This document shows positions 9,865-43,072 of a stretch of DNA of 64,000 bases, one piece after another. The DNA comes from a virus. The DNA lies in the IMG/VR virus record IMGVR_UViG_3300025131_000005. One strand, 5' to 3'. Under the pieces are notes generated by a model, which did no database searches, was not told where the DNA came from, and worked only from the letters and a program-made list of their open reading frames with translations. Position numbers and translations under genes: made by a program. Every line of letters begins with the position of its first letter. Within the stretch, counting starts at the first letter, position 1.

Positions 9865-10599
9865 ATGAAACTTCTACTTGAAAACTGGCGAAAGTATCTC
9901 TCAGAATCAAAGGCAGAGATAAATAATGAGCTTTCAGAGATAGCATTTAACACGATGTCTGCGATGTCTGTGTTTCGCGACGACGGCAACCTCTCAGAAG
10001 CGGAAGCAGCGGATCTCCAATATCTTGCAAGCAATGCTGCGAATCCAGATGCAGAAGTTGTTGATAGATTTTATGACTCATTATACGGTGGAAAGCGAGC
10101 CGGTTTCCTCTCCGCTTATTCGCGTGACGAGTTGGCTAGAATGGATTTATATCTCTTAGACGGACACAACGCAGGCTTCGCCATTAAGGATGGTGACGAT
10201 ATTGTTAGCGTCCACAATAACTCTGAGCTAAGAGGTTTGGGAAGCGAATTTATGAGAAAAGCCAAAGAGGTTGGAGGCGCAAGACTAGATCATTTTGATG
10301 GTTTTTTGAGTGGCTTGTATAGAAAATACGGCTTCAATAATGTGTATGAAGTATATCAGTGGGATGAAAAATATAAACCTGCAAAATGGAACTATGACGA
10401 GGTAGACATTTTGAATCCACAAAATAGTATATATGCAGACGCACTTGACGATATGATGTACGAAGATCCTGGTGCTCTCCCAAATGAAGAAGTCGACATC
10501 AAAGCTGAAAGCGGACTGGATATTGACATTAACCCGAAATTAAAATATAATAGTTACAAATATGGACGCCCTGATGTAATCATGAGAAAACTATCTTAA
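9865..10599 (+). CDS. MKLLLENWRKYL-leader protein with GNAT-like domain
   Basis: Shared leader. GFAIK...DIVSVHN...GLG...LDHFDGFLSGLYRKYGF resembles a GNAT fold. Confidence 0.6.
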   Translation: MKLLLENWRKYLSESKAEINNELSEIAFNTMSAMSVFRDDGNLSEAEAADLQYLASNAANPDAEVVDRFYDSLYGGKRAGFLSAYSRDELARMDLYLLDGHNAGFAIKDGDDIVSVHNNSELRGLGSEFMRKAKEVGGARLDHFDGFLSGLYRKYGFNNVYEVYQWDEKYKPAKWNYDEVDILNPQNSIYADALDDMMYEDPGALPNEEVDIKAESGLDIDINPKLKYNSYKYGRPDVIMRKLS

Positions 10600-10618
10600 T
10601 TTTAAATTCGGAGAAACA

Positions 10619-10837
10619 ATGAAGAAAGAAATACTTTATAAAGTACATGAAGGCTGTTATTTTAAGAAAGAAGAACTCACAGCCATGTGGTCGGAGAAAT
10701 ACAGTGATCCTAAGTTGGATCAAGAATGTTATTTGGTAAGAGTGATGCTCAAAAATAATTCTACTATATTAACTATCGCACATTCTCCCTCTAAGGAAGA
10801 GGCAGACAAGACGATTAAAGAAATAAATAAGACTTGA
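10619..10837 (+). CDS. Hypothetical protein
   Basis: SD GGAGA. Confidence 0.6.
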   Translation: MKKEILYKVHEGCYFKKEELTAMWSEKYSDPKLDQECYLVRVMLKNNSTILTIAHSPSKEEADKTIKEINKT

Positions 10838-10868
10838 CTCTTTAGCAAAAAATATTTATAATAGAAGA

Positions 10869-11069
10869 ATGGAAAAAGGAATTTTAAAAGTAGGGGATTT
10901 GGTAAAATCCAAATGGTGTACTGATTACAATGAAAATGATTACGGAATTGTTAAGTGTGTATCAAAATCCAAGTCCCATGGCTATGTAGCGGTAGCGTGG
11001 ACTGATGATTTTTTTAGTGAGTGGCAAGCTGAAGGATCTTTGGATCTAATAAGCGATGGAACATCTTAA
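10869..11069 (+). CDS. KOW/SH3-like mini-protein
   Basis: LKVGDLVKSK; TTGACT-17-TATAAT promoter at 10834-62. Confidence 0.7.
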   Translation: MEKGILKVGDLVKSKWCTDYNENDYGIVKCVSKSKSHGYVAVAWTDDFFSEWQAEGSLDLISDGTS

Positions 11070-11359: not shown

Positions 11360-11593
11360 ATGAAAATCGGTGACTTGATCAAGGTAGCTTTTTGCCCCCC
11401 TCCTGAGAGCAGCTTTTATAACTGCGGGTGCTTTTTCTGCTCTAACAAGAGCAATCGTATGGGGATAATCAAAAAGATACAGCAATCGGAGACGTCTGCT
11501 GCAAAGGCGTATACCGTTCAGTTCGATATAGGCGAGTGGATAGTCTTTGAAGAAGAAATGGAGCTAGTAAGCGTCTTAAATGAGAGTGAGTAG
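11360..11593 (+). CDS. KOW/SH3-like mini-protein
   Basis: MKIGDLIKV. Confidence 0.7.
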   Translation: MKIGDLIKVAFCPPPESSFYNCGCFFCSNKSNRMGIIKKIQQSETSAAKAYTVQFDIGEWIVFEEEMELVSVLNESE

Positions 11594-11601
11594 ATATTTT
11601 C

Positions 11602-11630
11602 CTTGACTTCGCTCAAGCGGTTCTTACAGT
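11602..11630 (+). promoter_or_regulatory. Class-B promoter
   Basis: TTGACT 11603-08, 16 bp spacer, TACAGT 11625-30. Confidence 0.65.
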
Positions 11631-11636
11631 ATATAC

Positions 11637-11852
11637 ATGCAAAAGAAAAGTCCACAACTTGGTGACTTGGTGATGTTCGATGAGTACAACAATAGCCTTA
11701 ACACACCTTGGCAGCATCAACTTGGCATCATTACTGAGATGCGACCGCACAAGCGATGTGTGGTACGTTGGCCCGATGGCGGCACCAGTATGCCTGAACT
11801 GCGAATTTTAGATATCCTAAATGAATGTGAGGGAGCGAGCAAGAACAAATGA
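11637..11852 (+). CDS. KOW/SH3-like mini-protein
   Basis: PQLGDLVMF...LGIIT...VRW. Confidence 0.65.
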   Translation: MQKKSPQLGDLVMFDEYNNSLNTPWQHQLGIITEMRPHKRCVVRWPDGGTSMPELRILDILNECEGASKNK

Positions 11853-12121: not shown

Positions 12122-12320
12122 AGTATTAACAGTTAGTTTGTTTCTCATAACTCTTCTTCTGATATATAATGGTTACGAGAAGAAGCGAGCGCTGGACTCT
12201 TGTATAAACGATGTTACGCAAAAATGTTCAGGTTTATTTTCCTATGCTTCTGCGCTGGAAGAAGAGAATGCCAGACTGAACAAGCTCATTCGAGATTGTA
12301 GAGCTAATGAAAGCAGGTGA
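12108..12320 (+). CDS. N-terminal TM plus coiled-coil protein
   Basis: Hydrophobic N-terminus; ends in the array junction tail ANESR. Confidence 0.6.
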   Translation: MNIYKVLTVSLFLITLLLIYNGYEKKRALDSCINDVTQKCSGLFSYASALEEENARLNKLIRDCRANESR

Positions 12321-12510
12321 TCTAGTGAGGATCAATCGTCCAAGCTCCGAGATGACCCACGGATCCCTTGGTTTAATAATTGAATTATGTGCGCCAGGTG
12401 CTCATCACCAAAATGATTTGTGGAGAATCCTGCTTTGTGATAATACAAAAAGGACATCTCAATTGCTTTTTGTAGCCCAGAACTTGGTGATAGTCAGTGA
12501 AAGTAGGTGA
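12307..12510 (+). CDS. KOW/SH3-like mini-protein
   Basis: MKAGDLVRI...IVSESR. Confidence 0.75.
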   Translation: MKAGDLVRINRPSSEMTHGSLGLIIELCAPGAHHQNDLWRILLCDNTKRTSQLLFVAQNLVIVSESR

Positions 12511-12664
12511 TTTGGTCAAATGTAAAGATGACCGTAACTTATATTTTGGCTATGGTATGATTTTGGAAGCTGAATCTCGTATGATTCTTGTCCGCTGGTT
12601 TGAAGATAATAACGAAGAATGGGTTTGGAAAATTAGTTTAGAGGTAGTCAGTGAAAGTAGGTGA
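12497..12664 (+). CDS. KOW/SH3-like mini-protein (55 aa, below ORF-track cutoff)
   Basis: MKVGDLVKCKDD...EVVSESR. Confidence 0.75.
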   Translation: MKVGDLVKCKDDRNLYFGYGMILEAESRMILVRWFEDNNEEWVWKISLEVVSESR

Positions 12665-12833
12665 TTTAATTAGAGATAGAGACTATCCAGATGATTGCCC
12701 AGGCATAATCGTTCGTATAGATGATCGAAGAAAATCAAGACCGTATATTGTTTTGTGTTCCGATGGAGTTTGTAGGTCATTTCCGAAGCGCTACGTTGAA
12801 ACCGATTGCGAAATTGTAAGTGAAAATAGGTGA
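12651..12833 (+). CDS. KOW/SH3-like mini-protein
   Basis: MKVGDLIRD...EIVSENR. Confidence 0.75.
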   Translation: MKVGDLIRDRDYPDDCPGIIVRIDDRRKSRPYIVLCSDGVCRSFPKRYVETDCEIVSENR

Positions 12834-25764: not shown

Positions 25765-26256
25765 GTGAATATACCTGCATCTCAACTCGAACAGATTATT
25801 AAGGAAGAAATCGATCAACTTTTGTTCGAACAAAACTTCAATCGTAAAACCGGTGAGCCAATGACTGATAAAGGACTTAAGATTTGCGCACAAAACGCAG
25901 GATGCAAAGAAAAGTGGCTTAAGCAAGATGATAAGGGAGCTTGGAGAAAGACTACCGATAGTGAATTGGGTGCTGCAGCAGTTAAAGGTGGAGCAGAAGG
26001 CATTAATGATCTTAAGAAGACTATGGCAGCACGTGCCGAGCAGGAAGAAAAAGAACGACAACAAGATCGGGAAGCCTTCTTAGCTAAAATGAAGAAAGAT
26101 AAGGAAAGAGATCGGTATTTTACCAATTGGACGATGACTAGAATGAAGGAAGATCCAGCTTCTATACCAAAATTAATACAATTACAAAAATTCTATGCTA
26201 GCTTGGAAGGTGAAAAAGCCGATGCATTTGTACAAAAGGCTGGCTGGAAGGGTTAG
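25765..26256 (+). CDS. Protein with QLEQIIKEE leader
   Basis: SD AGGAG, GTG start. Confidence 0.75.
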   Translation: MNIPASQLEQIIKEEIDQLLFEQNFNRKTGEPMTDKGLKICAQNAGCKEKWLKQDDKGAWRKTTDSELGAAAVKGGAEGINDLKKTMAARAEQEEKERQQDREAFLAKMKKDKERDRYFTNWTMTRMKEDPASIPKLIQLQKFYASLEGEKADAFVQKAGWKG

Positions 26257-26275: not shown

Positions 26276-26608
26276 ATGAAAATCACAAAAGAGCAACTTG
26301 AGCAAATTATCAGAGAAGAAACCAGTAAGATCTTGAATGAAGCCGATGGTGATCCGCCATATAGTAGGTACGAACAAGATTTAATTAAAAATTTAAATTC
26401 AATTTTGCAAAGTTATTGGCAACCAGGTAATAAAATTGGAGATGAATCTGAATTTGCGCAGCAATTCAAATTGGCTAAAAGTAAATTATCTTCAGAGTTT
26501 CAAGACGCGTATGATCTGCAAGCACAAAAGTATATTAATCATATGAATTGGAAAAGAAAAGAAGAAGAAGAATACGAAGCAGAATTTCCGGATCCGGGAG
26601 GCCTATAA
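26276..26608 (+). CDS. Protein with MKITKEQLEQIIREE leader
   Basis: Shared leader. Confidence 0.75.
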   Translation: MKITKEQLEQIIREETSKILNEADGDPPYSRYEQDLIKNLNSILQSYWQPGNKIGDESEFAQQFKLAKSKLSSEFQDAYDLQAQKYINHMNWKRKEEEEYEAEFPDPGGL

Positions 26609-27171
26609 TGAAAATAACAAAAGAGCAATTAGCACAAATTATCAGAGAAGAAGCCGCTAATATCTTAGATGAAGGTGAGGGAGATTTCAAATATAGCGAT
26701 CTTGCCGGTATGTACGGTCCCGGATCGATGAAACCCCCAAAGCCACGAGCTGCGCAGAGCGCACCAGAGCCAGAAGAAGAGGCTAGCCTAGATATATGGG
26801 CAGTGGTCGAATATCTGCGCGGGCTGGTTGGGGGTAAGCATGCTGGTCGATTCGATCCAGCGGAAATTAAAGTGCTGCTGCGGGCTGCAGAGATATTGCA
26901 CGTCAAAAGTGGAGTCTTTGAGAGATTAGCGCTAGAAGAAGGCAGTATACCCGAAGAGAAATGCAAAGATTTGCAAAAAACCTATAAATCTGCTTATGAG
27001 CAATACCTTAAAGAGAAGGCACCAGCACATCCCAACAACAAAGGTTCGAAGGATAGATGGAACAGCACCCTTAAAAATCTCAAAGACCAAAAAGATCGTT
27101 TGTTGGAGCCAGGGGGAGTTGGTGGATGTGCTTTAGATAAGCTTGTGGTAGATGAGATGGAAACTAGCTAA
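26608..27171 (+). CDS. Protein with MKITKEQLAQIIREE leader
   Basis: TAATG coupling; shared leader. Confidence 0.75.
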   Translation: MKITKEQLAQIIREEAANILDEGEGDFKYSDLAGMYGPGSMKPPKPRAAQSAPEPEEEASLDIWAVVEYLRGLVGGKHAGRFDPAEIKVLLRAAEILHVKSGVFERLALEEGSIPEEKCKDLQKTYKSAYEQYLKEKAPAHPNNKGSKDRWNSTLKNLKDQKDRLLEPGGVGGCALDKLVVDEMETS

Positions 27172-31614: not shown

Positions 31615-32327
31615 AAAATTTAGTTTTTTTAGTTATATTAATTATAAGTTCTTGTATTACTCATCTTAAATCTAGTAGCTTTGAAAACAAAAGAGATGAC
31701 ATATTTCATTCTGAAAACATAGTAAAAGTTGAATTTGTTTTTATGGAAGAATGTTCTGAGGATGCATGCAAAACAAATCGATTTATCAAGACATACGGCT
31801 CAGGTACTATTATAAATAAAGATATTCTTAATACGGTCGGTGTGTTGACGGCAGGCCATTTATGTTATCAATATTCTCTTTCAGTTAAAGAACATGGTAA
31901 GGAAAGGAATATATTAAAAATATATAATAATAAGATGGAATCTTATGAGGCTACAATCAGAGATTACTATCTTGAAAGTGATATATGTTTATTAAAAATT
32001 GAACACTATGATAATGAAATAGAAAAAATATATTTACGTGAGGACGCAATTATCCCAGGTGAAGAAATCTTTAATATTGGTGCGCCGACAGGATTGTTTT
32101 CTTACAATATGGTTAATCGTTTTCGAGGGTTTTATGCAGGAAATATTGCTCTAGGAGATGCAAATAATTTAAAAAATGTTTTTAATTTTCCAGCAGTTGA
32201 GGGAAGTTCCGGGTCTCCAATATTTGACGATGAGGGATTATTGATAGGTATTGTTTCAATGTTCTCAAAAGACTTTAACTATATAATCCTTTCACCAACC
32301 ATACCAGAGCTGAGAAAAAGGCTATAG
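31611..32327 (+). CDS. Trypsin-like serine protease (exported/lipoprotein)
   Basis: Catalytic triad in LTAGHLC, SDICLL and EGSSGSP; ISSC lipobox-like motif. Confidence 0.9.
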   Translation: MKNLVFLVILIISSCITHLKSSSFENKRDDIFHSENIVKVEFVFMEECSEDACKTNRFIKTYGSGTIINKDILNTVGVLTAGHLCYQYSLSVKEHGKERNILKIYNNKMESYEATIRDYYLESDICLLKIEHYDNEIEKIYLREDAIIPGEEIFNIGAPTGLFSYNMVNRFRGFYAGNIALGDANNLKNVFNFPAVEGSSGSPIFDDEGLLIGIVSMFSKDFNYIILSPTIPELRKRL

Positions 32328-32787
32328 ACTGAATTAGCCCTATAGGATCAAACTTATTTTTATCTTTGAGAGCTATAGCATCTTTTGCTGCTTTAAGAAA
32401 ATTTGGAGTGATCGGATATTTTTCTTTTTGTACTTGATCGAGTGTTAATAATTTATATTCCGAATGCTCAAAACTTAATTTTATATTTTTTACCTTGTCG
32501 GATGATAATTTAGAGTAATAATAAGTTATATCATCTTCATGACGAAATATTGTGGGATTTTTAATACTTAAACCTGTTTCTTCTTTGACTTCTCGCTTTA
32601 AAGCAACAATAAGATCTTCACCATGGTGCACGTGTCCCCCTGGTAAATCTAGATTACCTTTAAATCTTTCGATATCGCTTATAAGAAATAATATTTTATC
32701 GCCTACAAATAAAATAATTTTTGCAACGTATCTACTATCTTCACTTTTCTTAAGATATTTGCACCATTTCTTAATATTGTATTTCAT
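32275..32787 (-). CDS. NUDIX hydrolase
   Basis: Nudix box PGGHVHHGEDLIVALKREVKEETGL. Confidence 0.9.
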   Translation of the reverse strand: MKYNIKKWCKYLKKSEDSRYVAKIILFVGDKILFLISDIERFKGNLDLPGGHVHHGEDLIVALKREVKEETGLSIKNPTIFRHEDDITYYYSKLSSDKVKNIKLSFEHSEYKLLTLDQVQKEKYPITPNFLKAAKDAIALKDKNKFDPIGLIQSIAFFSALVWLVKGLYS

Positions 32788-32790: not shown

Positions 32791-33111
32791 TCAAGTATTG
32801 TCAGTTTTTGTTTTTATAACTGATTCTACAGGACTAGGTGGCGCGGCTTCTTCTGGTGCTGGAGCAAAATCAGAAACATCATCTAGAATATTTCCACATT
32901 CTAAACATCTTAGAGTTTGTACCGGTGCCATCTGCTCTTGTCCATTAGGAGACATAAGAGCACTTACCCTTTTCACCTTAAAAACATTTTCAAAATAGAC
33001 GCCTTGACATTTGCCGCAATGAGCATCGGGCGCGGTCATGATTTGTTGCCTCATTTGAGCTGCAGCGGCAGCTTGTGCTACCTGTGCGTTGTTATTTTCC
33101 ATTCCGTTCAT
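32791..33111 (-). CDS. Zinc-ribbon hypothetical protein
   Basis: CGKC...CLEC. Confidence 0.7.
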   Translation of the reverse strand: MNGMENNNAQVAQAAAAAQMRQQIMTAPDAHCGKCQGVYFENVFKVKRVSALMSPNGQEQMAPVQTLRCLECGNILDDVSDFAPAPEEAAPPSPVESVIKTKTDNT

Positions 33112-33694
33112 AATAATCCTTCTCCAATTTAGTTAATGTGCTAATTGTTTTAGCAACTGATGTATGTAATATCGCAATACCTCCACTTTTTTCCCAAGCT
33201 TCGGTATAAATCTCGAAATCATCAATCAAAATACAGGGTTTTCCGTTTTTATCGGTAGCCCATTTTTCTTTTTCCCCGTCCAGTGGTAATAGTATATCAT
33301 ACTTTTCAGGATTTGGAAACAAATATTTTTGAATCCAGTACTTTTTTCCTTCTATGCACTCTTCATCCATTGGATGTGAGAGGATTTTGGGGGTTGAAAT
33401 GAATGCTAAGTGTCTCCAAAGTCTAAAAGTCCCCGGAAGAGGCTTTAAGGAAGCCCAAAATTCGTAATCATTCGATAGCAAGTTCTTTACCCAATCAATT
33501 GCAGCTTGTATGCCTCTGTTTTTGACGGGCTCAGTCCAATCTAGACGCCTTTTGAATACTTTTTTAACATTTTTTAGCATTTTTGGGTCTTTTGCGCATG
33601 GGTATATACCATTTTCAAATAAATCTACCAGTACGCCATCCATATCACAGTAAATTTCATATGGAAAGTCATTTTTTTTGGATTTTGCAATCAT
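33092..33694 (-). CDS. HAD-family 5'(3')-deoxyribonucleotidase-like protein
   Basis: IYCDMDGVL, ILSHP and LIDDF motifs; minus-strand TTGACA-17-TATTAT promoter at 33732-33704. Confidence 0.85.
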   Translation of the reverse strand: MIAKSKKNDFPYEIYCDMDGVLVDLFENGIYPCAKDPKMLKNVKKVFKRRLDWTEPVKNRGIQAAIDWVKNLLSNDYEFWASLKPLPGTFRLWRHLAFISTPKILSHPMDEECIEGKKYWIQKYLFPNPEKYDILLPLDGEKEKWATDKNGKPCILIDDFEIYTEAWEKSGGIAILHTSVAKTISTLTKLEKDYYERNGK

Positions 33695-33782
33695 AATGAG
33701 CAAATAATATCAACATTTGGCTCTTTTGTCAAGAAAAAAGGTGTTTTTTGCTAAAAAAAGGCTATTTTTAGTGTTTTTTAGC

Positions 33783-34340
33783 CTATTTTCGAACATTTAT
33801 GCGATCGGAGACCATTAAAATTTCGGGGTATTTATCTCCCAAAAGTGCCACAATATCGACATTTTGTTGAGAATCATCTAAAAATAACACATCATCAGCC
33901 CCTGATTTGATGCGATCTTCGATCCAATTGGCTTTTTCTTGTGGATTTGGGTCCTCTAGTCCCACAATTTTTATTTTTGAGGTATCAATACCAATACTTT
34001 TCAACCAGCCTCTGATTGCCGGTGCTGCTTTTTGTGATCTAGCAGTCAAAATAACGATTTCTCGTTCTCCTTCTGCCTCAACAGCGCCTCGTAAGCGCTT
34101 TACAACCGATTTTATCTGCACAGGGTTGATAACTTCATCAAATTGGCTAAAATCATATTCATTTTCATACGGTTTGTACTCATGATCGGCAAATTCTTCT
34201 GGAGTAAACTCTTCTGAGGTATTGTCCGGATAAACAACTACTACTTTCGAATCAGAGACAGCTAATGTATCATCAAAATCAAAAACACGAAGCTTTGATT
34301 CATTTATATACTCTCGCCAATTTTCAAATAGAAGTTTCAT
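33783..34340 (-). CDS. HAD phosphatase with MKLLFENWREY leader
   Basis: VFDFDDTL, LTAR and FLDDSQQN motifs. Confidence 0.85.
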   Translation of the reverse strand: MKLLFENWREYINESKLRVFDFDDTLAVSDSKVVVVYPDNTSEEFTPEEFADHEYKPYENEYDFSQFDEVINPVQIKSVVKRLRGAVEAEGEREIVILTARSQKAAPAIRGWLKSIGIDTSKIKIVGLEDPNPQEKANWIEDRIKSGADDVLFLDDSQQNVDIVALLGDKYPEILMVSDRINVRK

Positions 34341-34543
34341 TCCTCATCTTCCGTAGTTTTAAACGTCTTACATTCACAAATAGTTCTACCATCATCAGTT
34401 CTTGCGTAGTCTAAATCGATATTTTCAGCGTAACAGAACTTGTTTTTGTTAAAAATGCAATCTACGCACAAACAAGAGCAAGTCACTTGCGGTAATTCTT
34501 CTTCAGAAATTAAATCTCGCCATTTTTCAAGTAATAGTTTCAT
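34337..34543 (-). CDS. Cys-rich (DUF1540-like) protein with MKLLLEKWR leader
   Basis: CSCLCVDCIFNKNKFCYAENIDL...CEC. Confidence 0.65.
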   Translation of the reverse strand: MKLLLEKWRDLISEEELPQVTCSCLCVDCIFNKNKFCYAENIDLDYARTDDGRTICECKTFKTTEDEE

Positions 34544-34545: not shown

Positions 34546-34914
34546 TTAAGCCTCCAAAGGTGTTAAATATACTGGGAATTCTTTTATTCCTAGCTTTTTA
34601 GCTGCTTCTAATCGATGGTGACCATTTAGAACAAAATAAACTGGTTCTGATATACCTGATTTCGCCGCTTTTGGCTGATCATCGATTCTGTGTGGGTTAA
34701 CTGGCGCTTGATTACAAACTTCTAGAGGCTCTAGAATTCCTTGTTGTATTTGTTGCATTTTATCTTGAACAATGTTTTCGCACTCTTGACTTGGACAATC
34801 ATGATCTTTTCCATGGCCCATTTCCTCAGAAGGAACTAATAAATTAACGTCGACATAAAAAACTTTCTTATTTTCTTTCACATACTCTCGCCAATTTTCA
34901 AATAGGAGTTTCAT
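34546..34914 (-). CDS. ParB/Srx-like domain protein with MKLLFENWREY leader
   Basis: VLNGHHRLEAAKKLG...PV. Confidence 0.75.
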   Translation of the reverse strand: MKLLFENWREYVKENKKVFYVDVNLLVPSEEMGHGKDHDCPSQECENIVQDKMQQIQQGILEPLEVCNQAPVNPHRIDDQPKAAKSGISEPVYFVLNGHHRLEAAKKLGIKEFPVYLTPLEA

Positions 34915-35177
34915 TCCTCTTCCGCCGAAGGGAATAATACATTCAACATTTCATCGATTTCGTTAAATGCTTCAAATTGTTCTGGGGGCCAATCGTCGGC
35001 GGATCCATATACTTCTTTCATACGTTCACTAATGAATTTTTCGATATCGTTTGCTATTACCCCATTTTTTATTAAAAACATTCTATGGGATTTCTTTTCC
35101 TCCGCGCTTTTCCACGGACCTCGAACAACATCCCCTTCTTTTAGGCGTTTTCGCCATTTTTCAAGTAATAGTTTCAT
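34911..35177 (-). CDS. Hypothetical protein with MKLLLEKWR leader
   Basis: Shared leader. Confidence 0.7.
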   Translation of the reverse strand: MKLLLEKWRKRLKEGDVVRGPWKSAEEKKSHRMFLIKNGVIANDIEKFISERMKEVYGSADDWPPEQFEAFNEIDEMLNVLFPSAEEE

Positions 35178-35187: not shown

Positions 35188-36246
35188 CTATCGAGGTAAG
35201 CCACCTAATAATGTAATTGCGATTAAGCCTGGTGCCCCCGGCTTTACATAAACACCAGAAAATAACGTTTCTGTGCGCCCACCAACATAAGAAATAGCAG
35301 CATCTAAATGTTGGCTGATGGCTGGATCGTTTGCCATTTCCGGAGGCATCACCAAGAGCATTGCTCCAATTTTTGATTTACCAACAGTTGTGGGACATGG
35401 AGATCTTTTTACACAATTTTGAAGTATTTTTGCTCCAAGATCTGGAATATTGGGATCTTTAATCAGTGTCGTGCCAATAAGCATTCTCTTTTCTGCCTCC
35501 AGGCATCTTTCTAGATCTTTTGAGTCAAATGACTGAATTGAGGACTTTTCTGAAGCCAATTTAAGAGTTTGGCTGAACAACTTTGCAAAAGCAGTATTTG
35601 CTGTTGGAAGCATATTAACCAATCCTACTTTACCTCGAAGAAACTTGATTTGTCTCTCATTATCTAAGATAATATGGGGAGAATCCATAACATCATTTGC
35701 CAATACCATAGCATTTTTTGCTATAGTGCCGTTTAATAGCTCCTGAGCGTTCGGGAAGGTCATAATGTAGAATACCTTGCCTTCTGCCCCAACTGCTCTT
35801 AAATAGCGCTTAAACACGTCGTCTAGGGCAAAACATGCACTACCCGTGCCTCCACCCCCGCCTGCGAGGACAAAAAGCCAATCAACCTTACCAAGTTTTG
35901 TTCTGAGGGCATCTTCGACAACAGCGCTGTTCTGGCTGAAGGCACTTTTCCCAACTTCAACGTTTTTGGCAACTCCGTCAGCGTCTGGAATAAGAACCAT
36001 GTTTTTAGGATCAACATTTTCCGGTTGATCTTTGGGAGTTGTATTGATCAGAAGAGTTTTGTTAAAGCCGAGATCCAAAAATGCTTTGGCCAATTTGCCG
36101 CCTCCTCCACCAACACCAATAAAAGCGCAATTTAGGGCGCACTCCACAGTATTGTCTTCTAACATATCTTCATTTTTGATTTCTTCAGAATCATCGTAAT
36201 GATCTACAAAATCAAAATCATCAAATTCATTTTCATCGTTATTCAT
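35188..36246 (-). CDS. Tubulin/FtsZ-family GTPase (PhuZ/TubZ-like)
   Basis: FIGVGGGGGK, INT, GVAKN, signature GGGTGSA, and D(S)KDL T7-like loop. Confidence 0.88.
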   Translation of the reverse strand: MNNDENEFDDFDFVDHYDDSEEIKNEDMLEDNTVECALNCAFIGVGGGGGKLAKAFLDLGFNKTLLINTTPKDQPENVDPKNMVLIPDADGVAKNVEVGKSAFSQNSAVVEDALRTKLGKVDWLFVLAGGGGGTGSACFALDDVFKRYLRAVGAEGKVFYIMTFPNAQELLNGTIAKNAMVLANDVMDSPHIILDNERQIKFLRGKVGLVNMLPTANTAFAKLFSQTLKLASEKSSIQSFDSKDLERCLEAEKRMLIGTTLIKDPNIPDLGAKILQNCVKRSPCPTTVGKSKIGAMLLVMPPEMANDPAISQHLDAAISYVGGRTETLFSGVYVKPGAPGLIAITLLGGLPR

Positions 36247-36526
36247 CTTTATCTCCTTTTGTTGATGTATATTTTTTAAGAGGGTCGCGGGCGGTGTTTC
36301 TTACAAGCGCATCAAAATCCTTCTTTAGTTGTTCAAGATCCGGATTATACGTTTGTTTATAAACTTTTTTACGCGGATTCTTTGCTCGTTTAGTCTGCAA
36401 GACTAGTTTTTTCATTGTCGATTTATTGGGATACTCTTTTTCTTCAGCTGCTTCCTGCATGATAGCATAGGTATTCTTAATTTCTTCTTCAATAATCTCT
36501 TTCAATTTTTGTTTTGTAATCTTCAT
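36239..36526 (-). CDS. Protein with MKITKQKLKEIIEEE leader
   Basis: ATGA coupling; shared leader. Confidence 0.7.
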   Translation of the reverse strand: MKITKQKLKEIIEEEIKNTYAIMQEAAEEKEYPNKSTMKKLVLQTKRAKNPRKKVYKQTYNPDLEQLKKDFDALVRNTARDPLKKYTSTKGDKDE

Positions 36527-38772
36527 TTGAACATATTTCCCCATTTCGTAAATAATTTTAGATTTTCTTTAGATTCTGACATCAAATCGGATAATTCTTC
36601 TACATCTTTCATATCTTTTCTTATTTGAGGAACAATCACTTTTTGTATTTTGTTATTAACTAGACCTTCGAGAAGCTCGCGAGTATACTCTAAAAACTTT
36701 GGTTTGTCGAGGATTTTTATAAATCTTTCAATAGCATTTACTTCTTCTTCAGTATTTTCCCTTACTTGAATATCTAGAGCGTAGCCAAAAGTTAAATGAT
36801 CGGATATCTTATGGGGAAACGCCGGTCCGCCGCCTTTGGGCATCGATCCACCTTTATCTGTTGTTAGCCACAAAGTTACATTGTTTACAGGTACTTGGAC
36901 GCCTTCTTCTTCTGAAAGGGGGAGTTCCATTTGTTTAGTGGCTGCTTGATATACTTTTTCAAATACTCCTTGGAGGTGTTTAAGGAATTCATTTTTTATT
37001 TCAAGGTTTATATGTTTGCCGATCTGTATCATTATCTTATTATAAAATGCTTTTTCTTCGTCAGTGGGGGCGCTTTTTGATGCATCGATGATTTCTGGTG
37101 GGAGCAAGATCTGAATGGGTAGTTGCGTGCTTAACTCAACCTCTGTACCTTCTGGTGTAACCTCAAAATGATCTAGCTCTAAGTCCTCAAAGCGTTTTGA
37201 CATATCTTTGATGGTTTGCCCCACTATCAAACCTGATTCTCTGAATGCTTCTAAAATTTCTTCGTATATTGCTTCGTATTTTTCTTCTAGTGTAACATTT
37301 TCCTCAACAAAGGAACGGAACTCATCCATTGTTGATCCACCGTAAGTGTAAGTGTCGGAAGGAGTAAAGTTAGCGGACACCTCAACTGAACCTCTCCAAT
37401 CGTTAACATCAAGTTCCTCTGGATAAAAATAGTTGTTGTCTAATGCTTTCTCAATGATATCTTTCATATCATCAGTATCTGGATCTTCTACCATATCGTC
37501 AACATCAGAAAAATCAAATGATGTTGAGGAGTTAAAATAATATTTACCCTCATCATATTCGTCGACATTGATGTGAACGCGTGACCATTCATATTCATCT
37601 ATAATATTTTGGAATTCTTCTAGGGTGGGACCGGCTGGATTTTCTTCAAAGTGACCTCCAGCGTATCCCGTTATTTCGCTCAACTCTTCCGATACTTTTT
37701 CATCAAACGTTTCGATAGCGATCTGTATTTGCTGTTCTGGGCTCAAATCTTCATCGGGCTCAGCCTCAATACCCAATGCTTCAAAGGCAACTTTTACATC
37801 TCTGGGAATTTCTAAGGTGTCTTGATTGTAGAACTCAGTACGCCATGTATCAAAATGAGTTTGAAGTTGCTCCTTTCCTGTTTTAAAGTAGCTAGTCTTT
37901 TTATCGCCTTTAAGTTTTTTGCCGACATCAGCAAGACTGGAATCCATAAATCCTTTCGCCAACAGGTTCTCTTTGATTGCTTCTTCTAAACCACCGTATC
38001 CAACTTCATCATCTGCAGCATCATATATTTCTTCTGGTTCATAATCACTTCCTGGACCGTATACCAAAGCCATTTTTTTATTATCGCTATCTTGCGGGAG
38101 ATGCTTGAAGAGGGCCATATAAAAAGCTTTTCCTTCGCCTGAGTACTGGTTAAAGTAATTTTGTGAGGTTGTAGACGAGATACACCACTTCGTGCCTCTG
38201 CCGTAATAACAAGAGCCTTCTGGGCTATAGGGGCGTACCATCATAACATCATCAGTATCCATTACTACTTCGCTGGTTTCTTTTGCGCCCTTTTCTAATT
38301 TGCGCATCGTTTCTCTTTCATTAAATTCTTTTTCTGCATTATATACTTGATGCTCGAAGTCGCCCAAATCTTTAAACTTATCAATATTTTTATCAATCAA
38401 GTTCATAGAAGCAAATTTGTGATACTTGGGTAAGGTGCTTGCTATTCTTCTCGTATAGTGTCTTATATTATCTTCTATATCGCGGACATCTACCTCTCTA
38501 TCATACTCTTTAGCCTCGCCCTCTGCATTTTTTATATACTGCATCACTCTGGAGTTGAGGCGACGAGCAGCCCATCCTAAATATTTTTGATTGCCCGAGG
38601 GATCAGCTTCTATGATAGTATCAAGAAGTTTTTCCAATTCTTTTGCAACCTGCTCGTATTTAACATTTTTTACAACGGCTTTTTTAGCGTCTTCTTTACG
38701 ACCTTCAATGAGAAGCACTTCCTCATCTTCGGATAAAAACTTGCGCCATCTTTCAAATAATAGCTTACTCAT
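36523..38772 (-). CDS. Large acidic protein with MSKLLFERWRKFL leader
   Basis: Leader; internal SCYYGRGTKWCIS motif. Confidence 0.8.
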   Translation of the reverse strand: MSKLLFERWRKFLSEDEEVLLIEGRKEDAKKAVVKNVKYEQVAKELEKLLDTIIEADPSGNQKYLGWAARRLNSRVMQYIKNAEGEAKEYDREVDVRDIEDNIRHYTRRIASTLPKYHKFASMNLIDKNIDKFKDLGDFEHQVYNAEKEFNERETMRKLEKGAKETSEVVMDTDDVMMVRPYSPEGSCYYGRGTKWCISSTTSQNYFNQYSGEGKAFYMALFKHLPQDSDNKKMALVYGPGSDYEPEEIYDAADDEVGYGGLEEAIKENLLAKGFMDSSLADVGKKLKGDKKTSYFKTGKEQLQTHFDTWRTEFYNQDTLEIPRDVKVAFEALGIEAEPDEDLSPEQQIQIAIETFDEKVSEELSEITGYAGGHFEENPAGPTLEEFQNIIDEYEWSRVHINVDEYDEGKYYFNSSTSFDFSDVDDMVEDPDTDDMKDIIEKALDNNYFYPEELDVNDWRGSVEVSANFTPSDTYTYGGSTMDEFRSFVEENVTLEEKYEAIYEEILEAFRESGLIVGQTIKDMSKRFEDLELDHFEVTPEGTEVELSTQLPIQILLPPEIIDASKSAPTDEEKAFYNKIMIQIGKHINLEIKNEFLKHLQGVFEKVYQAATKQMELPLSEEEGVQVPVNNVTLWLTTDKGGSMPKGGGPAFPHKISDHLTFGYALDIQVRENTEEEVNAIERFIKILDKPKFLEYTRELLEGLVNNKIQKVIVPQIRKDMKDVEELSDLMSESKENLKLFTKWGNMFK

Positions 38773-39442: not shown

Positions 39443-39459
39443 CTTGTTTCTTCTCCCAC

Positions 39460-41475
39460 CTATTTGCAAATCTCATTAAATATTTCCATTAAATTGTTAT
39501 ACATATCAGTCGGATTGCTAGTGAGCATATAATTCTTTCCATTTCCTGCATCCGATAAATCGGTCCATGATTGTATTGTATTTTTTGAAAACGTGTATAG
39601 TTTAAGTTGGGGGGTGCCGCCAATTGCGGTGATAACATCTTGCTCAGTTAACTGAGGCACTAAGTAACTCTGAGGGGGTTCATCACTAAAAACGATTACA
39701 ATACGATCAGCTCCTGCGCGCCAACTAACTTTAAAATCTTGTAAAGGAGGTATTGATTCTTTAACTCCCCATGGTTGAGTACTGTATACTCCGCTTTCTC
39801 CTTTCCATACCATATCACTAATATTATAGTTAATAGTGGCGCTAATATTACGAAGCGATAAGTATACAGCGTCTAGAATCATCTCATAAGAAGTTTGCAT
39901 CGCTGCCCAATTGGTACCTAACTGTCCCATAGAAGTAAGGAATTCAGTAAACCCGACCAGATTTTGGTGCAATTCTAAACGTTCATCTTGAGATCCGAAT
40001 GTTTCGAAAACATCCAATGGTCCACGAATTAAAGCCCAATTAATAACTTCTTCATCGCTAAAATTAGCAGCAAATTGATTTAACGCTATCATAACGGCGT
40101 CGATTTCATCAGCCATTGAACCGGACCAATCTACAATGAAAAGAATATCTGTATCGGGTATTTCTTCACCCCAATCCGTTTCACCGTCACAATCATCGTC
40201 TAGACCGTTGCAAAGTTCTTCTTGAGGAGTTACTTCTTCTTTACAATAATAAGGAATAAAAGCGCCTTCTTCAGAATCATTACCCCAAATACCTTTATCA
40301 CAATACATTTCTCCAGGTTTGCATTCTCCGGCGTATAAGGTCCCTTCGGGTCCTGTATAACATCCAGAAAACAAATCTTCATCAATTAGTTGATTGCAGT
40401 TATCATCAAAATTATTACACTCTTCCTTTTCTAGTTCCATTCCTATGAGCGGATCACATACAGTTTGAGGATTCGGGGGGAAATGATGACAAATAGCATA
40501 GCAGGGAGTTGTTATAATTGTTTTGCATTCAGGATCTAAACATTCGCAAGTTTTATATCCTTGACCACATAGGAGAGGCGATTCTTGACATGGAAATAGA
40601 GATCCTACATCTTGTATAGTACAAATACATTCAAGACCTTCGTCGACTTGTCCATTGCAGTTATTATCTAGTCCATCGCAAATTTCATCTAATTCTGGTG
40701 GGGCCGTACAAGATATCCAATTACCACTTTCACATATTTCTACCCCATTTCCACAAGCAGTAGCACATGGTTGAAAAAGCTCTTCATCTGTTAATCCATC
40801 GCAATCATCATCATAAGCGTTGCACTCTTCTGAGGGGATGGTTCCGCATTCATTACAATCATTTAATTGTTCTTCATCTGTAAATCCATCGCAGTCATCA
40901 TCAAGTTCGTTACAGGTTTCTTCTGGGATTTCTTCACAATCATTACAAGCATTTAAAACACCTTCATCTATTTCACCATCGCAGTCATTGTCAATATAAT
41001 CGCAAGTTTCTTCTACACAATCTGTAATACAATCTGTATATTGAATTTTTCCTTTATTACAAACTTTTTCTACAACGCCAGCGTATCCATCATCAGTTGT
41101 GCATTCTAAAAAGTCAATATGATATTGTGATGGGTCACATTCCATATATTCTTCACATTCACCTTCGGAATGCAATGTGGGGGGATTATCACACATGTTT
41201 AAACAAATTTCTTTTTGCCATATAGCATCTAGAGGTGGACAAAAATACCATTTGCACTCGACACATTCTTCAAGAGGAGGAGAAATATCTTCTTCTACCC
41301 ATGGAGTCCAACGTACTGCATCATCAGAAAAAATATCTTCTTGTTCGGTGTAGGTATTTTCGTCAGAAAAAAAAGATCCATCGCTGCCGGAGGTATTAGA
41401 ACAATTAACAGCCGATGCGCCGATAAAAATTATCAACAGTGTCAGTCGCGTGATTGTTTTAATATTGTTTTTCAT
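39460..41475 (-). CDS. Exported Cys-rich MopE-like repeat protein with C-terminal VWA domain
   Basis: Signal/lipobox AVNC; six ExCxxxD(D/N)xCxGxxDE-type repeats; MIDAS DWSGS; IVIVFSDE. Confidence 0.85.
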   Translation of the reverse strand: MKNNIKTITRLTLLIIFIGASAVNCSNTSGSDGSFFSDENTYTEQEDIFSDDAVRWTPWVEEDISPPLEECVECKWYFCPPLDAIWQKEICLNMCDNPPTLHSEGECEEYMECDPSQYHIDFLECTTDDGYAGVVEKVCNKGKIQYTDCITDCVEETCDYIDNDCDGEIDEGVLNACNDCEEIPEETCNELDDDCDGFTDEEQLNDCNECGTIPSEECNAYDDDCDGLTDEELFQPCATACGNGVEICESGNWISCTAPPELDEICDGLDNNCNGQVDEGLECICTIQDVGSLFPCQESPLLCGQGYKTCECLDPECKTIITTPCYAICHHFPPNPQTVCDPLIGMELEKEECNNFDDNCNQLIDEDLFSGCYTGPEGTLYAGECKPGEMYCDKGIWGNDSEEGAFIPYYCKEEVTPQEELCNGLDDDCDGETDWGEEIPDTDILFIVDWSGSMADEIDAVMIALNQFAANFSDEEVINWALIRGPLDVFETFGSQDERLELHQNLVGFTEFLTSMGQLGTNWAAMQTSYEMILDAVYLSLRNISATINYNISDMVWKGESGVYSTQPWGVKESIPPLQDFKVSWRAGADRIVIVFSDEPPQSYLVPQLTEQDVITAIGGTPQLKLYTFSKNTIQSWTDLSDAGNGKNYMLTSNPTDMYNNLMEIFNEICK

Positions 41476-41553
41476 TCTTGTTTATTAAAGAAAGTTCCCA
41501 CAATATAACTAGTTAAAAACCTACACTATATATATTATAATATTTAACTGTCA

Positions 41554-41844
41554 TTGGAGTACAAAACTACTTATTATATTATGAGCACAAAAAGATGTGA
41601 TTTGTCAAGGAAAAACATGTGTTACTTGACTTTTATTCTCTCAATCGTATTTTTTATTACGTCGATGGTGTTTTTTGTTTCTGTTGGTGGTGTTGCCTCG
41701 AAAGAAAAACTCATTAATCATGATAAAATTCATCATGCGCAGCAACGAAAAATAATTGATAAACTCAAGCTTCTTGAAAATAAAGTTCATAAAAATAAAA
41801 ATAAATTAAATAGATTAAAGAAAAGAAGAAAGGATAATAATTGA
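41554..41844 (+). CDS. TM plus coiled-coil protein
   Basis: One TM segment, basic C-terminus; start uncertain. Confidence 0.55.
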   Translation: MEYKTTYYIMSTKRCDLSRKNMCYLTFILSIVFFITSMVFFVSVGGVASKEKLINHDKIHHAQQRKIIDKLKLLENKVHKNKNKLNRLKKRRKDNN

Positions 41845-42089
41845 TGTCGACCGGTGAAGCCAAAATATCTCTTAGCAGTTTAAGAGATTATATTTTATTA
41901 GGCGTTGCTATAGTGAGCGCCATTGCTGGGATTATTTTTTGGGTGCAGGGCTCTAATGATGAAAAAATATCCAGATTGGAACACGATATTGAATTAGTCC
42001 AATTGGATATCGATAAAATAAGAGAAAATAATACCGAAATACTAAGAGTTATAGGACGTCTTGAAGGCAAGCTGGATAATTTAAAATGA
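41844..42089 (+). CDS. TM plus coiled-coil protein (holin-like architecture)
   Basis: N-terminal TM segment followed by a heptad coil. Confidence 0.55.
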   Translation: MSTGEAKISLSSLRDYILLGVAIVSAIAGIIFWVQGSNDEKISRLEHDIELVQLDIDKIRENNTEILRVIGRLEGKLDNLK

Positions 42090-43072
42090 TTAAAAATCTT
42101 TGGGAAGAATATGTCCGAGAAAACGAGATTGATTTACAATCTTTAATACCAAAGGATAATTTACAACCAAGTTTTTGGAATAATAAATTAGAACTTAAAA
42201 AATCTATAGCTGATAAATTAATGGAAATTGCTAAAGATTTTCTTGAATCTATTAATTTAGATACGGAAATCGAACTTAAAGATGTAACCATAACAGGCTC
42301 AATAGCTAGCTATAATTGGTCAAAATATTCTGATGTAGATCTTCATTTAATAATTGATTATAAAGATGTAGATGAAAATGAAGATTTGGTAAAAGAATAT
42401 TTTTCTGGAAAGATATTTGTGTGGAATACTAAACATGAAATCATGATGAACGATCATGAAGTCGAAGTATACGTACAAAATGAATCAGAGACGCATGTTT
42501 CTGGCGGCGTCTATTCAGTGATGCATAATAAATGGTTACAAAAACCAAAGAAGGAAGATGTTATAATAAATCTTGCAGTGGTAGAAAAAAAAGTACTTGG
42601 ATTAATCGATCATATCGAAAGATCTTTTGATTTATTTGAGCAAAAAAAATATCATCCCGCAATGGTTACTGCCAAAAGTATAAAAGAAAAAATTAAACTC
42701 TTAAGACGCTCTGGGTTATCTAAAGAAGGCATATATTCAATTGAAAATCTAGCTTTTAAGTTACTTCGAAGATCAGGGCATTTAAAACTTATTAATGATA
42801 TTATCACTAAGTCATATGATAGAGTTATGTCTTTACATAAAGATTTGCGAGGATCTTTGAAAGTTTTTATTGGAAGTACTGAGTCTGAGGCTAATGAATC
42901 TTATGATGCTCTTTTAGAAGAAGAAGGATATCAACGTCGGGTAAAACAGAGACATTATCTTATGAAAAAGAAATTAATTGGTCTTGGAGGAGAGAAAAAT
43001 ACCTCCCCTTATGTAAAGAAACCTAGTTATAAGAGATCAAAATCTGCTCCTGCTGGATTGGGGGGAAGTTAA
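42086..43072 (+). CDS. Pol-beta superfamily nucleotidyltransferase
   Basis: TITGSIASYNWSKYSDVDLHL (GS-x10-DxD) plus EVEVYVQ; leader-like NLWEEYVRE. Confidence 0.8.
   Translation: MIKNLWEEYVRENEIDLQSLIPKDNLQPSFWNNKLELKKSIADKLMEIAKDFLESINLDTEIELKDVTITGSIASYNWSKYSDVDLHLIIDYKDVDENEDLVKEYFSGKIFVWNTKHEIMMNDHEVEVYVQNESETHVSGGVYSVMHNKWLQKPKKEDVIINLAVVEKKVLGLIDHIERSFDLFEQKKYHPAMVTAKSIKEKIKLLRRSGLSKEGIYSIENLAFKLLRRSGHLKLINDIITKSYDRVMSLHKDLRGSLKVFIGSTESEANESYDALLEEEGYQRRVKQRHYLMKKKLIGLGGEKNTSPYVKKPSYKRSKSAPAGLGGS

What the first reader, a model, noticed from the sequence alone, without database searches (positions are those of the whole stretch)
9865..43072. Shared N-terminal leader peptides on unrelated cargo domains: a possible capsid-targeting system
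Seen: MKLL(F/L)E(N/K/R)WR-type leaders on proteins at 9865 (GNAT-like), 34340 (HAD), 34543 (Cys-rich), 34914 (ParB-like), 35177 and 38772, with weaker versions at 32787 (NUDIX) and 42086 (NTase). MKITKxQLxxIIxEE leaders occur at 25765, 26276, 26608 and 36526. Most end in L/I-x-E. Established: T4 internal proteins use a short N-terminal capsid-targeting sequence cleaved after Glu by the prohead protease. Inference: these leaders are address tags that load a diverse enzyme payload into the virion for injection.
Basis: partly seen in the sequence, partly recalled or inferred. Interest (0 to 1): 0.8.

Follow-up and report, generated by a model that had tools for sequence, protein, structure and literature searches.

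The report
Capsid-targeting-like leader tags, marine T4-like phage
An uncultured marine T4-like phage starts many unrelated proteins with the same short peptide, which looks like phage T4's signal for loading proteins into the virus head, so these phages probably pre-pack a large, swappable set of enzymes; packaging itself has not been shown.

Summary
Six window genes start with MKLL(L/F)E.WR..(L/I).E. Orthologues show that the NTase (42086) and NUDIX (32787) genes carry diverged versions. Four genes carry the second leader, MKITK..L..II.EE.

Both leaders are widespread in marine viral contigs (at least 120 contigs each, scans capped) on more than 100 unrelated bodies.

Support for a T4-type capsid-targeting propeptide:
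- Conservation stops at Glu14, and 81% of leaders have [LIVM]xE exactly there.
- Anchored on that Glu, W8, Y/F11, L/I12 and E14 fall on the T4 IPIII residues needed for targeting (4, 7) and processing (8, 10).
- The core W..[FY][LIV].E occurs only at N-termini.
- Every near-complete leader-bearing genome tested encodes a gp21-type prohead protease, and both leaders sit on head-module genes.
- Cargo bodies are specifically depleted in [LI]xE, the gp21 cleavage motif.

A new point: leader codons 2-9 are also conserved at synonymous sites, and truncated leader stubs exist. So the tag also behaves as a DNA cassette junction.

Packaging, cleavage and injection are inferred, not shown. The window's own protease could not be read. 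Pfam did not confirm the GNAT-like or ParB-like labels. First readers of this scan noted the same leaders in other windows of this genome and in another genome. I class it as a new variant of a known kind.

The parts
9865..10599 (+). Gene with MKLL-type leader MKLLLENWRKYLSE (leader DNA 9865-9906). The 230-aa body has no recognisable family.
   Evidence: no Pfam, PDB or atlas function
33783..34340 (-). HAD-type phosphatase with leader MKLLFENWREYINE (34299-34340). The HAD motif FDFDDT starts 6 residues after Glu14.
   Evidence: There are 912 metagenomic homologues, and the best 120 all carry the leader core.
34337..34543 (-). 68-aa Cys-rich protein with leader MKLLLEKWRDLISE (34502-34543)
34546..34914 (-). 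122-aa protein with leader MKLLFENWREYVKE (34873-34914). Orthologues in L031, L035 and L084 also carry the leader.
   Evidence: the ParB-like label is not confirmed
34911..35177 (-). 88-aa protein with leader MKLLLEKWRKRLKE (35136-35177). Its first 27 nt are identical to those of the 34543 leader.
36523..38772 (-). 749-aa protein with leader MSKLLFERWRKFLSE (38728-38772). It belongs to a conserved cargo family (LLIEGR.ED.KK) that also carries the leader in L008 and L039.
   Evidence: only PHROGs of unknown function
42086..43072 (+). Nucleotidyltransferase-like protein with diverged leader MIKNLWEEYVRE (42086-42121). The core W..YV.E is kept.
32275..32787 (-). NUDIX hydrolase with decayed leader MKYNIKKWCKYLKK (32746-32787). 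The Glu is replaced by Lys.
25765..26256 (+). Gene with a variant of the second leader, (M)NIPASQLEQIIKEEIDQLLFE, GTG start with AGGAG upstream
26276..26608 (+). 110-aa protein with MKITK-type leader MKITKEQLEQIIREETSKILNE (26276-26341)
26608..27171 (+). 187-aa protein with MKITK-type leader MKITKEQLAQIIREEAANILDE (26608-26673)
36239..36526 (-). 95-aa protein with MKITK-type leader MKITKQKLKEIIEEE (36482-36526), between the 749-aa leader gene and the tubulin-like gene
33092..33703 (-). NT5C-like nucleotidase without a leader, in the same minus-strand gene block. Orthologues in other contigs carry the MKLL leader, so the tag is optional on this cargo.
35188..36246 (-). Tubulin/FtsZ-like gene with an acidic N-terminal extension, embedded among the leader genes (context only, no leader)

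Best explanation
The 14-residue MKLL(L/F)ENWR(K/Q/E)(Y/F)(L/I)xE leader, and the roughly 22-residue MKITKxQL(K/R)QIIKEE(L/I)..L.E leader, are capsid-targeting propeptides of a clade of uncultured marine T4-like myoviruses. As an amphipathic N-terminal helix, the leader would dock the newly made protein onto the assembling prohead core. The gp21-type (S77) prohead protease would then cut after the [LIV]-x-Glu that ends the leader. This would leave the mature enzyme (HAD and NT5C phosphatases, NUDIX, nucleotidyltransferase, protein kinases, zeta-toxin-like kinases, nucleases and many unknowns) inside the head, to be delivered with the DNA.

Shown here: the motif, its N-terminal-only position, its sharp end at Glu, its spread over more than 100 unrelated bodies, its occurrence in T4-like phages and on head-module genes, and the avoidance of [LI]xE in the cargo.

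Inferred: docking, cleavage, packaging and injection.

The DNA of leader codons 2-9 is also kept nearly constant. It probably serves as the homology handle by which cargo genes are swapped behind the tag.
For: (1) Among 158 unique IMG/VR leader ORFs (104 unrelated bodies), positions the search pattern left free are conserved: Y/F at 11 (91%), L/I/V at 12 (91%) and E at 14 (82%). Information falls from 3.1 to 0.84 bits right after residue 14.

(2) [LIVM]xE sits exactly at 12-14 in 128 of 158. Of the other 30, 21 have it ending at residues 13-22. Background is 1.7% per position.

(3) T4 IPII and IPIII start MKTYQEFIAE|A. According to PMC9026906, targeting needs residues 4 and 7, and processing needs residues 8 and 10. 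Anchored on the Glu these are P7, P4, P3 and P1, which correspond to W8, Y/F11, L/I12 and E14 here.

(4) The core W..[FY][LIVM].E is only N-terminal across all six frames: 5 of 5 hits in the window and 11 of 11 in ORFs of at least 60 aa in the 203-kb genome G001.

(5) The gp21-type protease PF03420 is present in 8 of 8 MKLL-bearing records that are at least 90% complete, and in 5 of 5 large MKITK-bearing records. The gp23 capsid protein is present in 5 of 5.

(6) Leaders lie on head-module genes. In G001, MKLLLEHWNRYLQE sits on the acidic protein two ORFs upstream of the protease, and ATWRTFLNE lies near the N-terminus of the next gene. In G010, both leader types sit next to terminase and portal, and MKLSREDLERMIKEE starts the gene right after the protease.

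(7) Cargo bodies avoid the cleavage motif. [LI]xE observed/expected is 0.94 (MKLL) and 0.91 (MKITK) against 1.19 in size-matched neighbours (permutation p about 0.002 and 0.004). [LI]xD, [LI]xK and the reversed motif Ex[LI] are not depleted.

(8) Orthologous NUDIX, NT5C and NTase genes carry full, shortened (MNKWNKFLTE) or no leaders, but always keep the W..F/Y-L-x-E core when tagged.

(9) The window phage belongs to this clade. Its GroEL is 52-61% identical and its tubulin-like protein 66-81% identical to those of leader-bearing contigs, including protease-positive G010 and G012.
Against: - There are no virion proteomes or cultured relatives. The phage collection gave no match to the HAD, the tubulin-like protein or the leaders.
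- The window's own protease could not be read.
- Co-occurrence with the protease is weak evidence, because it is a clade trait; GroEL also co-occurs in 5 of 5. No base rate for the protease among leader-free large contigs was measured.
- Similarity to the T4 CTS is at pattern level only, not demonstrable homology.
- Much of the cargo (nucleotidases, NUDIX) is typical of cytoplasmic nucleotide metabolism.
- Synonymous conservation of codons 2-9 shows a DNA- or RNA-level constraint that the peptide model does not itself explain.
- The head module of cyanophage S-SSM4 has no such leaders.
Confidence: 0.6

Rival explanations
1. The primary function is at the nucleic-acid level. The roughly 27-nt leader DNA would be a cassette junction (recombination handle, or translational coupling or operator element) that lets genes be shuffled or co-regulated. 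The shared peptide would be a by-product.
For: Leader codons 2-9 use rare codons far above background: CTC 58% against 9%, CTA 69% against 13%, CGA 57% against 15%. Within orthologue families the same-codon fraction is 0.68-1.0 in leader codons 2-9 against 0.40-0.62 in the bodies. Truncated stubs (the first 27-29 nt of the leader, then a stop and a new ATG, with the leader's GAGG serving as Shine-Dalgarno) precede unrelated genes in 7 loci. Near-identical 27-37-nt repeats head adjacent window genes. The ATGA start gives stop/start overlaps.
Against: All six Arg codons, eight codons for the aliphatic residue at position 12, and Y/F and L/F exchanges show selection on the amino acids. Short leader variants with quite different DNA keep only the W..F-L-x-E core. 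There is no conserved RNA structure: mean z is 0.06 over 157 sites. A DNA element would explain neither the exact [LIV]xE end nor the [LI]xE depletion in cargo. This rival is compatible with the main model as a second layer.
Confidence: 0.12
2. The leader is a docking helix for some other phage assembly in the cytoplasm (a nucleotide-metabolism complex, the tubulin-like filament or the phage chaperonin), not for the capsid.
For: Cargo is rich in nucleotide-handling enzymes. A tubulin-like gene sits among leader genes in the window and in G001. GroEL is present in 5 of 5 complete leader-bearing genomes.
Against: The tubulin-like gene is absent from 3 of 5 complete leader-bearing genomes. GroEL needs no tag. 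This rival does not explain the Glu-terminated module, the T4-CTS spacing, the head-module location or the [LI]xE avoidance.
Confidence: 0.12
3. The leader is a removable pro-sequence or degron that controls activity or lifetime of potentially toxic enzymes. It would be processed by a protease in the cytoplasm, without packaging.
For: Some cargo is toxin-like: Zeta_toxin, protein kinases, nucleases and a Tox-PLDMTX hit. The leader ends in a protease-type motif.
Against: In T4 the gp21 protease becomes active only after the prohead is complete (PMC9958956). Many cargo bodies are harmless-looking small proteins. The leaders occur on head-module proteins.
Confidence: 0.08
4. The leader is a functionless shared N-terminal exon that spread by duplication, or a chance resemblance.
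For: Paralogue arrays and DNA repeats exist.
Against: There were 0 hits in shuffles. The leader is retained in all 120 best HAD homologues at about 50% body identity. Its position and residues are strictly conserved across more than 100 unrelated bodies.
Confidence: 0.02

Closest known systems
Capsid-targeting sequence (CTS) of phage T4 internal proteins IPII/IPIII (MKTYQEFIAE), cleaved by prohead protease gp21 (Mullaney & Black 1996; reviewed in PMC9026906, PMC3012670, PMC9958956)
   Same: Both are short N-terminal peptides shared by otherwise unrelated proteins. Both have hydrophobic or aromatic residues at P7 and P4, an aliphatic residue at P3 and Glu at P1. Both occur in phages with a gp21-type protease. 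Cargo sets are diverse and fast-changing, with only the tag conserved.
   Different: The leader here is 14 residues (or about 22), not 10, and has no demonstrable sequence homology to the T4 CTS. It is far more widespread (hundreds of marine contigs, more than 100 cargo families). Cargo includes many enzymes up to about 840 aa. The tag DNA is conserved at synonymous sites. Packaging and cleavage are untested.
N-terminal propeptides of head and ejection proteins in giant phages phiKZ, 201phi2-1 and SPN3US (cleaved at S/A/G-x-E; PMC5694885)
   Same: Both involve a Glu-specific prohead protease and conserved N-termini on diverged paralogues that are thought to target proteins to the prohead.
   Different: Those propeptides are mostly more than 100 residues and end in A/S/G-x-E. 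Those phages are not T4-like in their core proteins. The tags are not shared across unrelated enzyme families.
Polymorphic internal-protein loci of T-even phages, where diverse defence proteins share only the CTS (cited in PMC3012670)
   Same: Both fit the idea of a swappable payload behind a constant tag. The tag-coding DNA could act as the recombination point.
   Different: Here the arrays are larger and dispersed. Truncated leader stubs and synonymous-site conservation are documented directly. The hosts are unknown marine bacteria.

Membership tests
T4-type capsid-targeting propeptide (CTS) | Short (10-20 aa) peptide at the extreme N-terminus | tested here: met
   All copies start at the initiator Met. 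The core motif is never internal in six frames of the window (5/5) or of G001 (11/11).
T4-type capsid-targeting propeptide (CTS) | Ends in the gp21 cleavage consensus [L/I]-x-Glu | tested here: met
   128 of 158 have [LIVM]xE at residues 12-14, and 149 of 158 have it ending by residue 22. Conservation collapses right after the Glu.
T4-type capsid-targeting propeptide (CTS) | Hydrophobic or aromatic residues at the positions needed for targeting (IPIII residues 4 and 7, which are P7 and P4) | tested here: met
   W8 is invariant and position 11 is Y/F in 91%. The spacing is identical to Y4/F7 of MKTYQEFIAE when anchored on Glu (PMC9026906).
T4-type capsid-targeting propeptide (CTS) | The phage encodes a gp21-type (Peptidase_S77) prohead protease | tested here: inconclusive
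Met in relatives: 8 of 8 near-complete MKLL records and 5 of 5 large MKITK records. The window's own genome could not be read.
T4-type capsid-targeting propeptide (CTS) | Sequence homology to the T4 CTS | tested here: not met
   Only pattern-level similarity to MKTYQEFIAE. No alignment-based relationship is possible at this length.
T4-type capsid-targeting propeptide (CTS) | Tagged proteins are present in proheads or virions, with the tag removed after Glu | not testable with these tools
   No isolate or proteome is available. Indirect support comes from specific [LI]xE depletion in cargo bodies.
T4-type capsid-targeting propeptide (CTS) | The tag alone suffices to package a foreign protein | not testable with these tools
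   Needs a leader-reporter experiment.
Sec/Tat/lipoprotein signal peptide | Basic n-region followed by an uninterrupted hydrophobic h-region of about 10-15 residues and a signal-peptidase site | tested here: not met
   The leader is amphipathic and charged throughout (K2, E6, R9, K10, E14) with no hydrophobic run. True signal peptides in the same gene block look different, as in 38822-39469 and 39460-41475.
Recombination or regulatory DNA cassette junction (integron-attC-like or T4 PeSL-like) | A conserved DNA element, not merely a conserved peptide, at the borders of variable genes | tested here: met
   There is excess synonymous conservation of codons 2-9, there are leader stubs, and there are 27-37-nt repeats. 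No hairpin structure was found, so it is not PeSL- or attC-like in form.

The most novel reading that the evidence does not exclude
Marine T4-like phages may run a two-layer 'address-tag cassette' system. A 27-nt DNA module, conserved even at synonymous sites, would act as the exchange or expression handle. The peptide it encodes would be a capsid-targeting, protease-removed tag. Together they would let these abundant ocean phages trade a pool of more than 100 protein families (kinases, nucleotidases, NUDIX and HAD enzymes, toxin-like proteins) that are pre-packed in the head and injected with the DNA as immediate host-takeover or anti-defence effectors.
Probability: 0.3. Interest if true: 0.8.

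Novelty: new variant of a known kind. Interest (0 to 1): 0.62.

Why it matters
If the tag works as in T4, it gives a sequence-only way to list the proteins that abundant, uncultured ocean myoviruses carry inside their heads. It predicts an unexpectedly large, enzyme-rich and rapidly exchanged payload that acts at the first moment of infection. It would also supply a second natural, compact packaging tag, distinct from T4's, that could be tested for loading foreign proteins into phage heads. The unexplained DNA-level conservation of the tag bears on how phages shuffle genes.

Tried and rejected
- RNA structure around the start: −35 to +45 at 157 sites gives a mean z of 0.06 and no recurrent pairs. 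A hairpin or SD-sequestering explanation for the codon conservation is rejected.
- T4 late promoter TATAAATA: not associated with the leader genes. ACTATTTA lies upstream of 9865 and 38772 but is not enriched overall (6 found against 3.9 expected). Expression timing stays open.
- Cultured relatives: blastn and tblastn of the leader block, HAD, tubulin-like protein, a 25-aa leader piece and an MKITK protein against 50,697 phage records found nothing.
- Literature: full-text searches for the motif strings found no relevant paper.
- Window's own genome: none is held.
- Tubulin-docking tag: rejected as a general explanation, because the gene is absent from 3 of 5 complete leader-bearing genomes.
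- Leader in smaller, non-T4 phages: the 5 contigs of 85-108 kb that were tested are all fragments, 29-59% complete.
- PHROGs gave no names for the head-module leader proteins.
- The head module of cyanophage S-SSM4 lacks such leaders.
Full report
**1. What is there**

The window is a gene-dense phage segment (GC 33-42%, two tRNAs, a bacterial-type GroEL and a PIN-PhoH gene).

Six genes begin with MKLL(L/F)E(N/K/R)WR followed by x-x-[LIV]-x-E: 9865(+), 34340, 34543, 34914, 35177 and 38772 (all −). A degenerate DNA pattern for the first nine residues hits 5 times against 0 in 100 shuffles. In all six frames the peptide is found only at these starts.

The second leader, MKITK..L..II.EE, is exact at 26276, 26608 and 36526 (3 hits against 0 in shuffles). 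A GTG-started variant sits at 25765.

Pfam supports NUDIX firmly. It gives only weak, below-cut-off hits for the HAD and NTase bodies; the HAD also has the FDFDDT motif. It does not support 'GNAT-like' (9865) or 'ParB-like' (34914).

**2. The leaders are widespread and modular**

An exact-pattern scan of IMG/VR for MKLLxExWR returned the capped maximum of 120 contigs, where roughly 7 chance matches would be expected from the pattern's information content (my estimate). These contigs hold 185 ORFs, 158 of them unique, on 104 unrelated bodies.

Positions the pattern left free are strongly conserved: Y/F at 11 (91%), L/I/V at 12 (91%) and E at 14 (82%). Information content drops from 3.1 to 0.84 and then 0.5 bits immediately after residue 14.

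[LIVM]xE lies exactly at 12-14 in 128 of 158. In 21 of the remaining 30 it ends at residues 13-22, usually after a one-residue insertion. The background is 1.7% per position.

Of 94 bodies scanned, only about a quarter at most hit Pfam. The hits were protein kinases (4), NUDIX, AAA_33/Zeta_toxin kinases, HAD, RNase_T, GDSL and others. Catalytic domains begin within a few residues of Glu14, for example the HAD DxDxT motif and the NT5C DMDG motif.

The MKITK leader is equally common: at least 120 contigs and 160 unique ORFs with a median length of 106 aa. The consensus is MKITK.QL(K/R)QIIKEE(L/I)..L.E.

Within orthologous NUDIX, NT5C and NTase families the N-terminus ranges from the full leader, through short forms (MKKWHNFVNE, MNKWNKFLTE, MDFIKSWKSFLEE), to none. 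When a tag is present it always keeps W..[FY][LIV].E. This shows that the window's NTase (MIKNLWEEYVRE) and NUDIX (MKYNIKKWCKYLKK, Glu lost) carry diverged leaders. It also shows that the window's leaderless NT5C-like gene (33092-33703) has tagged orthologues. The tagged HAD family has 912 metagenomic homologues, and the best 120 all carry the core.

**3. Which phages carry them**

The T4 gp21-type prohead protease (Peptidase_S77) is present in all 8 MKLL-bearing records that are at least 90% complete, and in both records that are 83-85% complete. The one large record without it had only a chance-like 14-aa ORF. The protease is also in 5 of 5 large MKITK-bearing records, and gp23-type capsid genes are in 5 of 5. 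The protease of G001 is about 40-44% identical to those of Flavobacterium phage immuto and of cyanophages. The 5 leader contigs of 85-108 kb that were tested are all fragments, 29-59% complete.

The window phage shares many genes with these contigs. GroEL is 52-61% identical and the tubulin-like protein 66-81% identical, including with protease-positive G010 and G012.

I could not read the window's own head module. Unchecked earlier notes place a protease gene and MKITK-type leaders about 50 kb upstream.

**4. Link to the head**

In G001 a 182-aa acidic protein starting MKLLLEHWNRYLQE lies two ORFs upstream of the protease. The next gene after the protease has ATWRTFLNE near its N-terminus, and the one after that starts MKKSDLKQLIKPLVKE.

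In G010, reading along the coding strand, an MKLL gene (MKLLMENWREYLNE) comes first, followed several genes later by two MKITK-type genes and an MKIL-type gene (MKILMENWRSYLEA). Then come terminase, portal, a tubulin-like gene, the protease, a 330-aa MKLSREDLERMIKEE protein, a scaffold-like gene and the capsid gene.

The capsid proteins of this clade, and T4 gp23, carry an LLxKW...LLE element in the N-terminal region. In T4 this region is removed during maturation. T4 gp22 begins MLKEQLIAE. These are resemblances only.

**5. Comparison with the T4 CTS**

T4 IPII and IPIII start MKTYQEFIAE|A. The review PMC9026906 reports that targeting depends on residues 4 and 7 and processing on residues 8 and 10. 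Counted back from the Glu, these are P7, P4, P3 and P1. In the marine leader those positions are W8, Y/F11, L/I12 and E14, which are the most conserved unconstrained positions.

The idea that T-even internal proteins are diverse defence proteins sharing only a CTS is already published (PMC3012670).

**6. An independent test: cleavage-motif avoidance**

If cargo sits in a prohead with an [L/I]xE-specific protease, it should avoid that motif. In non-redundant, size-matched sets, [LI]xE observed/expected is 0.94 in MKLL cargo and 0.91 in MKITK cargo, against 1.19 in neighbouring genes (permutation p about 0.002 and 0.004). [LI]xD, [LI]xK and the reversed motif Ex[LI] are not depleted.

Caveat: gene calling was crude, and differences in fold class were not controlled beyond these control motifs.

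**7. A second layer at the DNA level**

Leader codons 2-9 use specific, mostly rare codons far above background: CTC-CTA-CTT, and CGA at 57% against 15%. Codons 10-14 follow background usage.

Within orthologue families the same-codon fraction at conserved residues is 0.68-1.0 in leader codons 2-9 against 0.40-0.62 in the bodies.

Seven loci carry truncated leader stubs, each followed by a stop and an unrelated gene with its own ATG. In the window, adjacent leader genes carry 27-37-nt near-identical repeats and ATGA stop/start overlaps. No RNA structure explains this.

Peptide-level selection is nevertheless clear. All six Arg codons occur, many codons are used for the aliphatic residue at position 12, and short variants keep only the core. 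I read the DNA conservation as recombination or homogenisation at the tag, or as an unidentified nucleotide-level function, on top of the peptide function.

**8. Verdict**

The best explanation is a T4-type capsid-targeting, protease-removed propeptide (confidence 0.6). The cassette-junction role of its DNA is an added, partly unexplained feature.

Co-occurrence with the protease is weak evidence by itself, because GroEL also co-occurs in 5 of 5 genomes; both are clade traits. The tubulin-like gene is absent from 3 of 5 complete leader-bearing genomes, so it is not the docking partner.

Nothing shows packaging, cleavage or injection directly. No paper in the searchable library describes these motifs. 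First readers of this scan noted the same leaders in other windows of this genome and in another genome.

Noticed in passing
window 35188-36246 (-); G001 111992-113032; G010 71154-72362 (L158): A tubulin/FtsZ-family gene (Pfam Tubulin E 1e-5; best PDB match 3zid) with a roughly 40-aa acidic N-terminal extension sits among the leader genes. It lies between an MKLL gene and an MKITK gene in G001, and directly upstream of the prohead protease in G010. It is present in only 2 of 5 complete relatives. A tubulin homologue in the head region of a T4-like phage seems unusual.
   Followed up: partly
window 1262-2851 (+): A phage-encoded bacterial-type GroEL (Cpn60, about 45% identical to bacterial GroL). 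It is present in 5 of 5 complete leader-bearing relatives, so it is a trait of the clade.
   Followed up: partly
L034, L037, L044, L058, L100, L104, L116 (IMG/VR loci): Truncated leader stubs: the first 27-29 nt of the consensus leader DNA, then a stop within a few codons, then an unrelated gene with its own ATG (TTG in L058). The leader's GAGG is placed as the Shine-Dalgarno of that gene.
   Followed up: partly
window 43072-45960 (+), residues 744-906: This 962-aa protein has an HExxH-type motif (HELVHH) in a roughly 140-aa C-terminal region. That region matches 36 of the fetched loci at up to 55% identity. Its N-terminus, MKLKVILKEKKNLNE, also ends in L-x-E.
   Followed up: no
window 45972-48860 (+): This 962-aa protein has a K-T-D-G (ligase-type) motif near residue 39 and a PPHAGH (nucleotidyltransferase HxGH-type) motif near residue 450. 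It follows the NTase gene, which suggests an RNA-repair-like block. This is read from the sequence only.
   Followed up: no
window 9850, 24375, 29726, 30423, 38816(-): ACTATTTA lies just upstream of gene starts, in the gene's orientation, in 5 of its 6 occurrences. These include the leader genes at 9865 and 38772. CTATTTA is strongly strand-biased in G001 (48 against 5). It is a candidate promoter element, and it is not T4's TATAAATA.
   Followed up: partly
window 9370-9838, 10869-11069, 11360-11852, 12307-13738, 19888-21977, 29509-29709(-), 30105-30305(-): Dozens of small genes (about 55-75 aa) begin MK(V/I/L)GDLV or carry it near the start, in overlapping tandem arrays. This is a third shared-N-terminus family in the same window.
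   Followed up: no
L136 (Flavobacterium phage immuto, NC_055915) 1930-3230, 7654-7875, 9540-9767: A cultured T4-like flavobacterial phage has its own shared leaders on genes around terminase, portal and protease: MADNFNLRSFLTENKL, MENFDLKKFLVENKL, MENNFDIHKWQAKFLKE and MKKSQIVKAVQEVLEE. It could serve as an experimental model.
   Followed up: partly
window 38822-39469 and 39460-41475 (-): Two genes at the upstream end of the same minus-strand block as the leader genes have signal or lipoprotein-like N-termini. One has MopE-type metal-binding repeats (Pfam E 3e-12).
   Followed up: no
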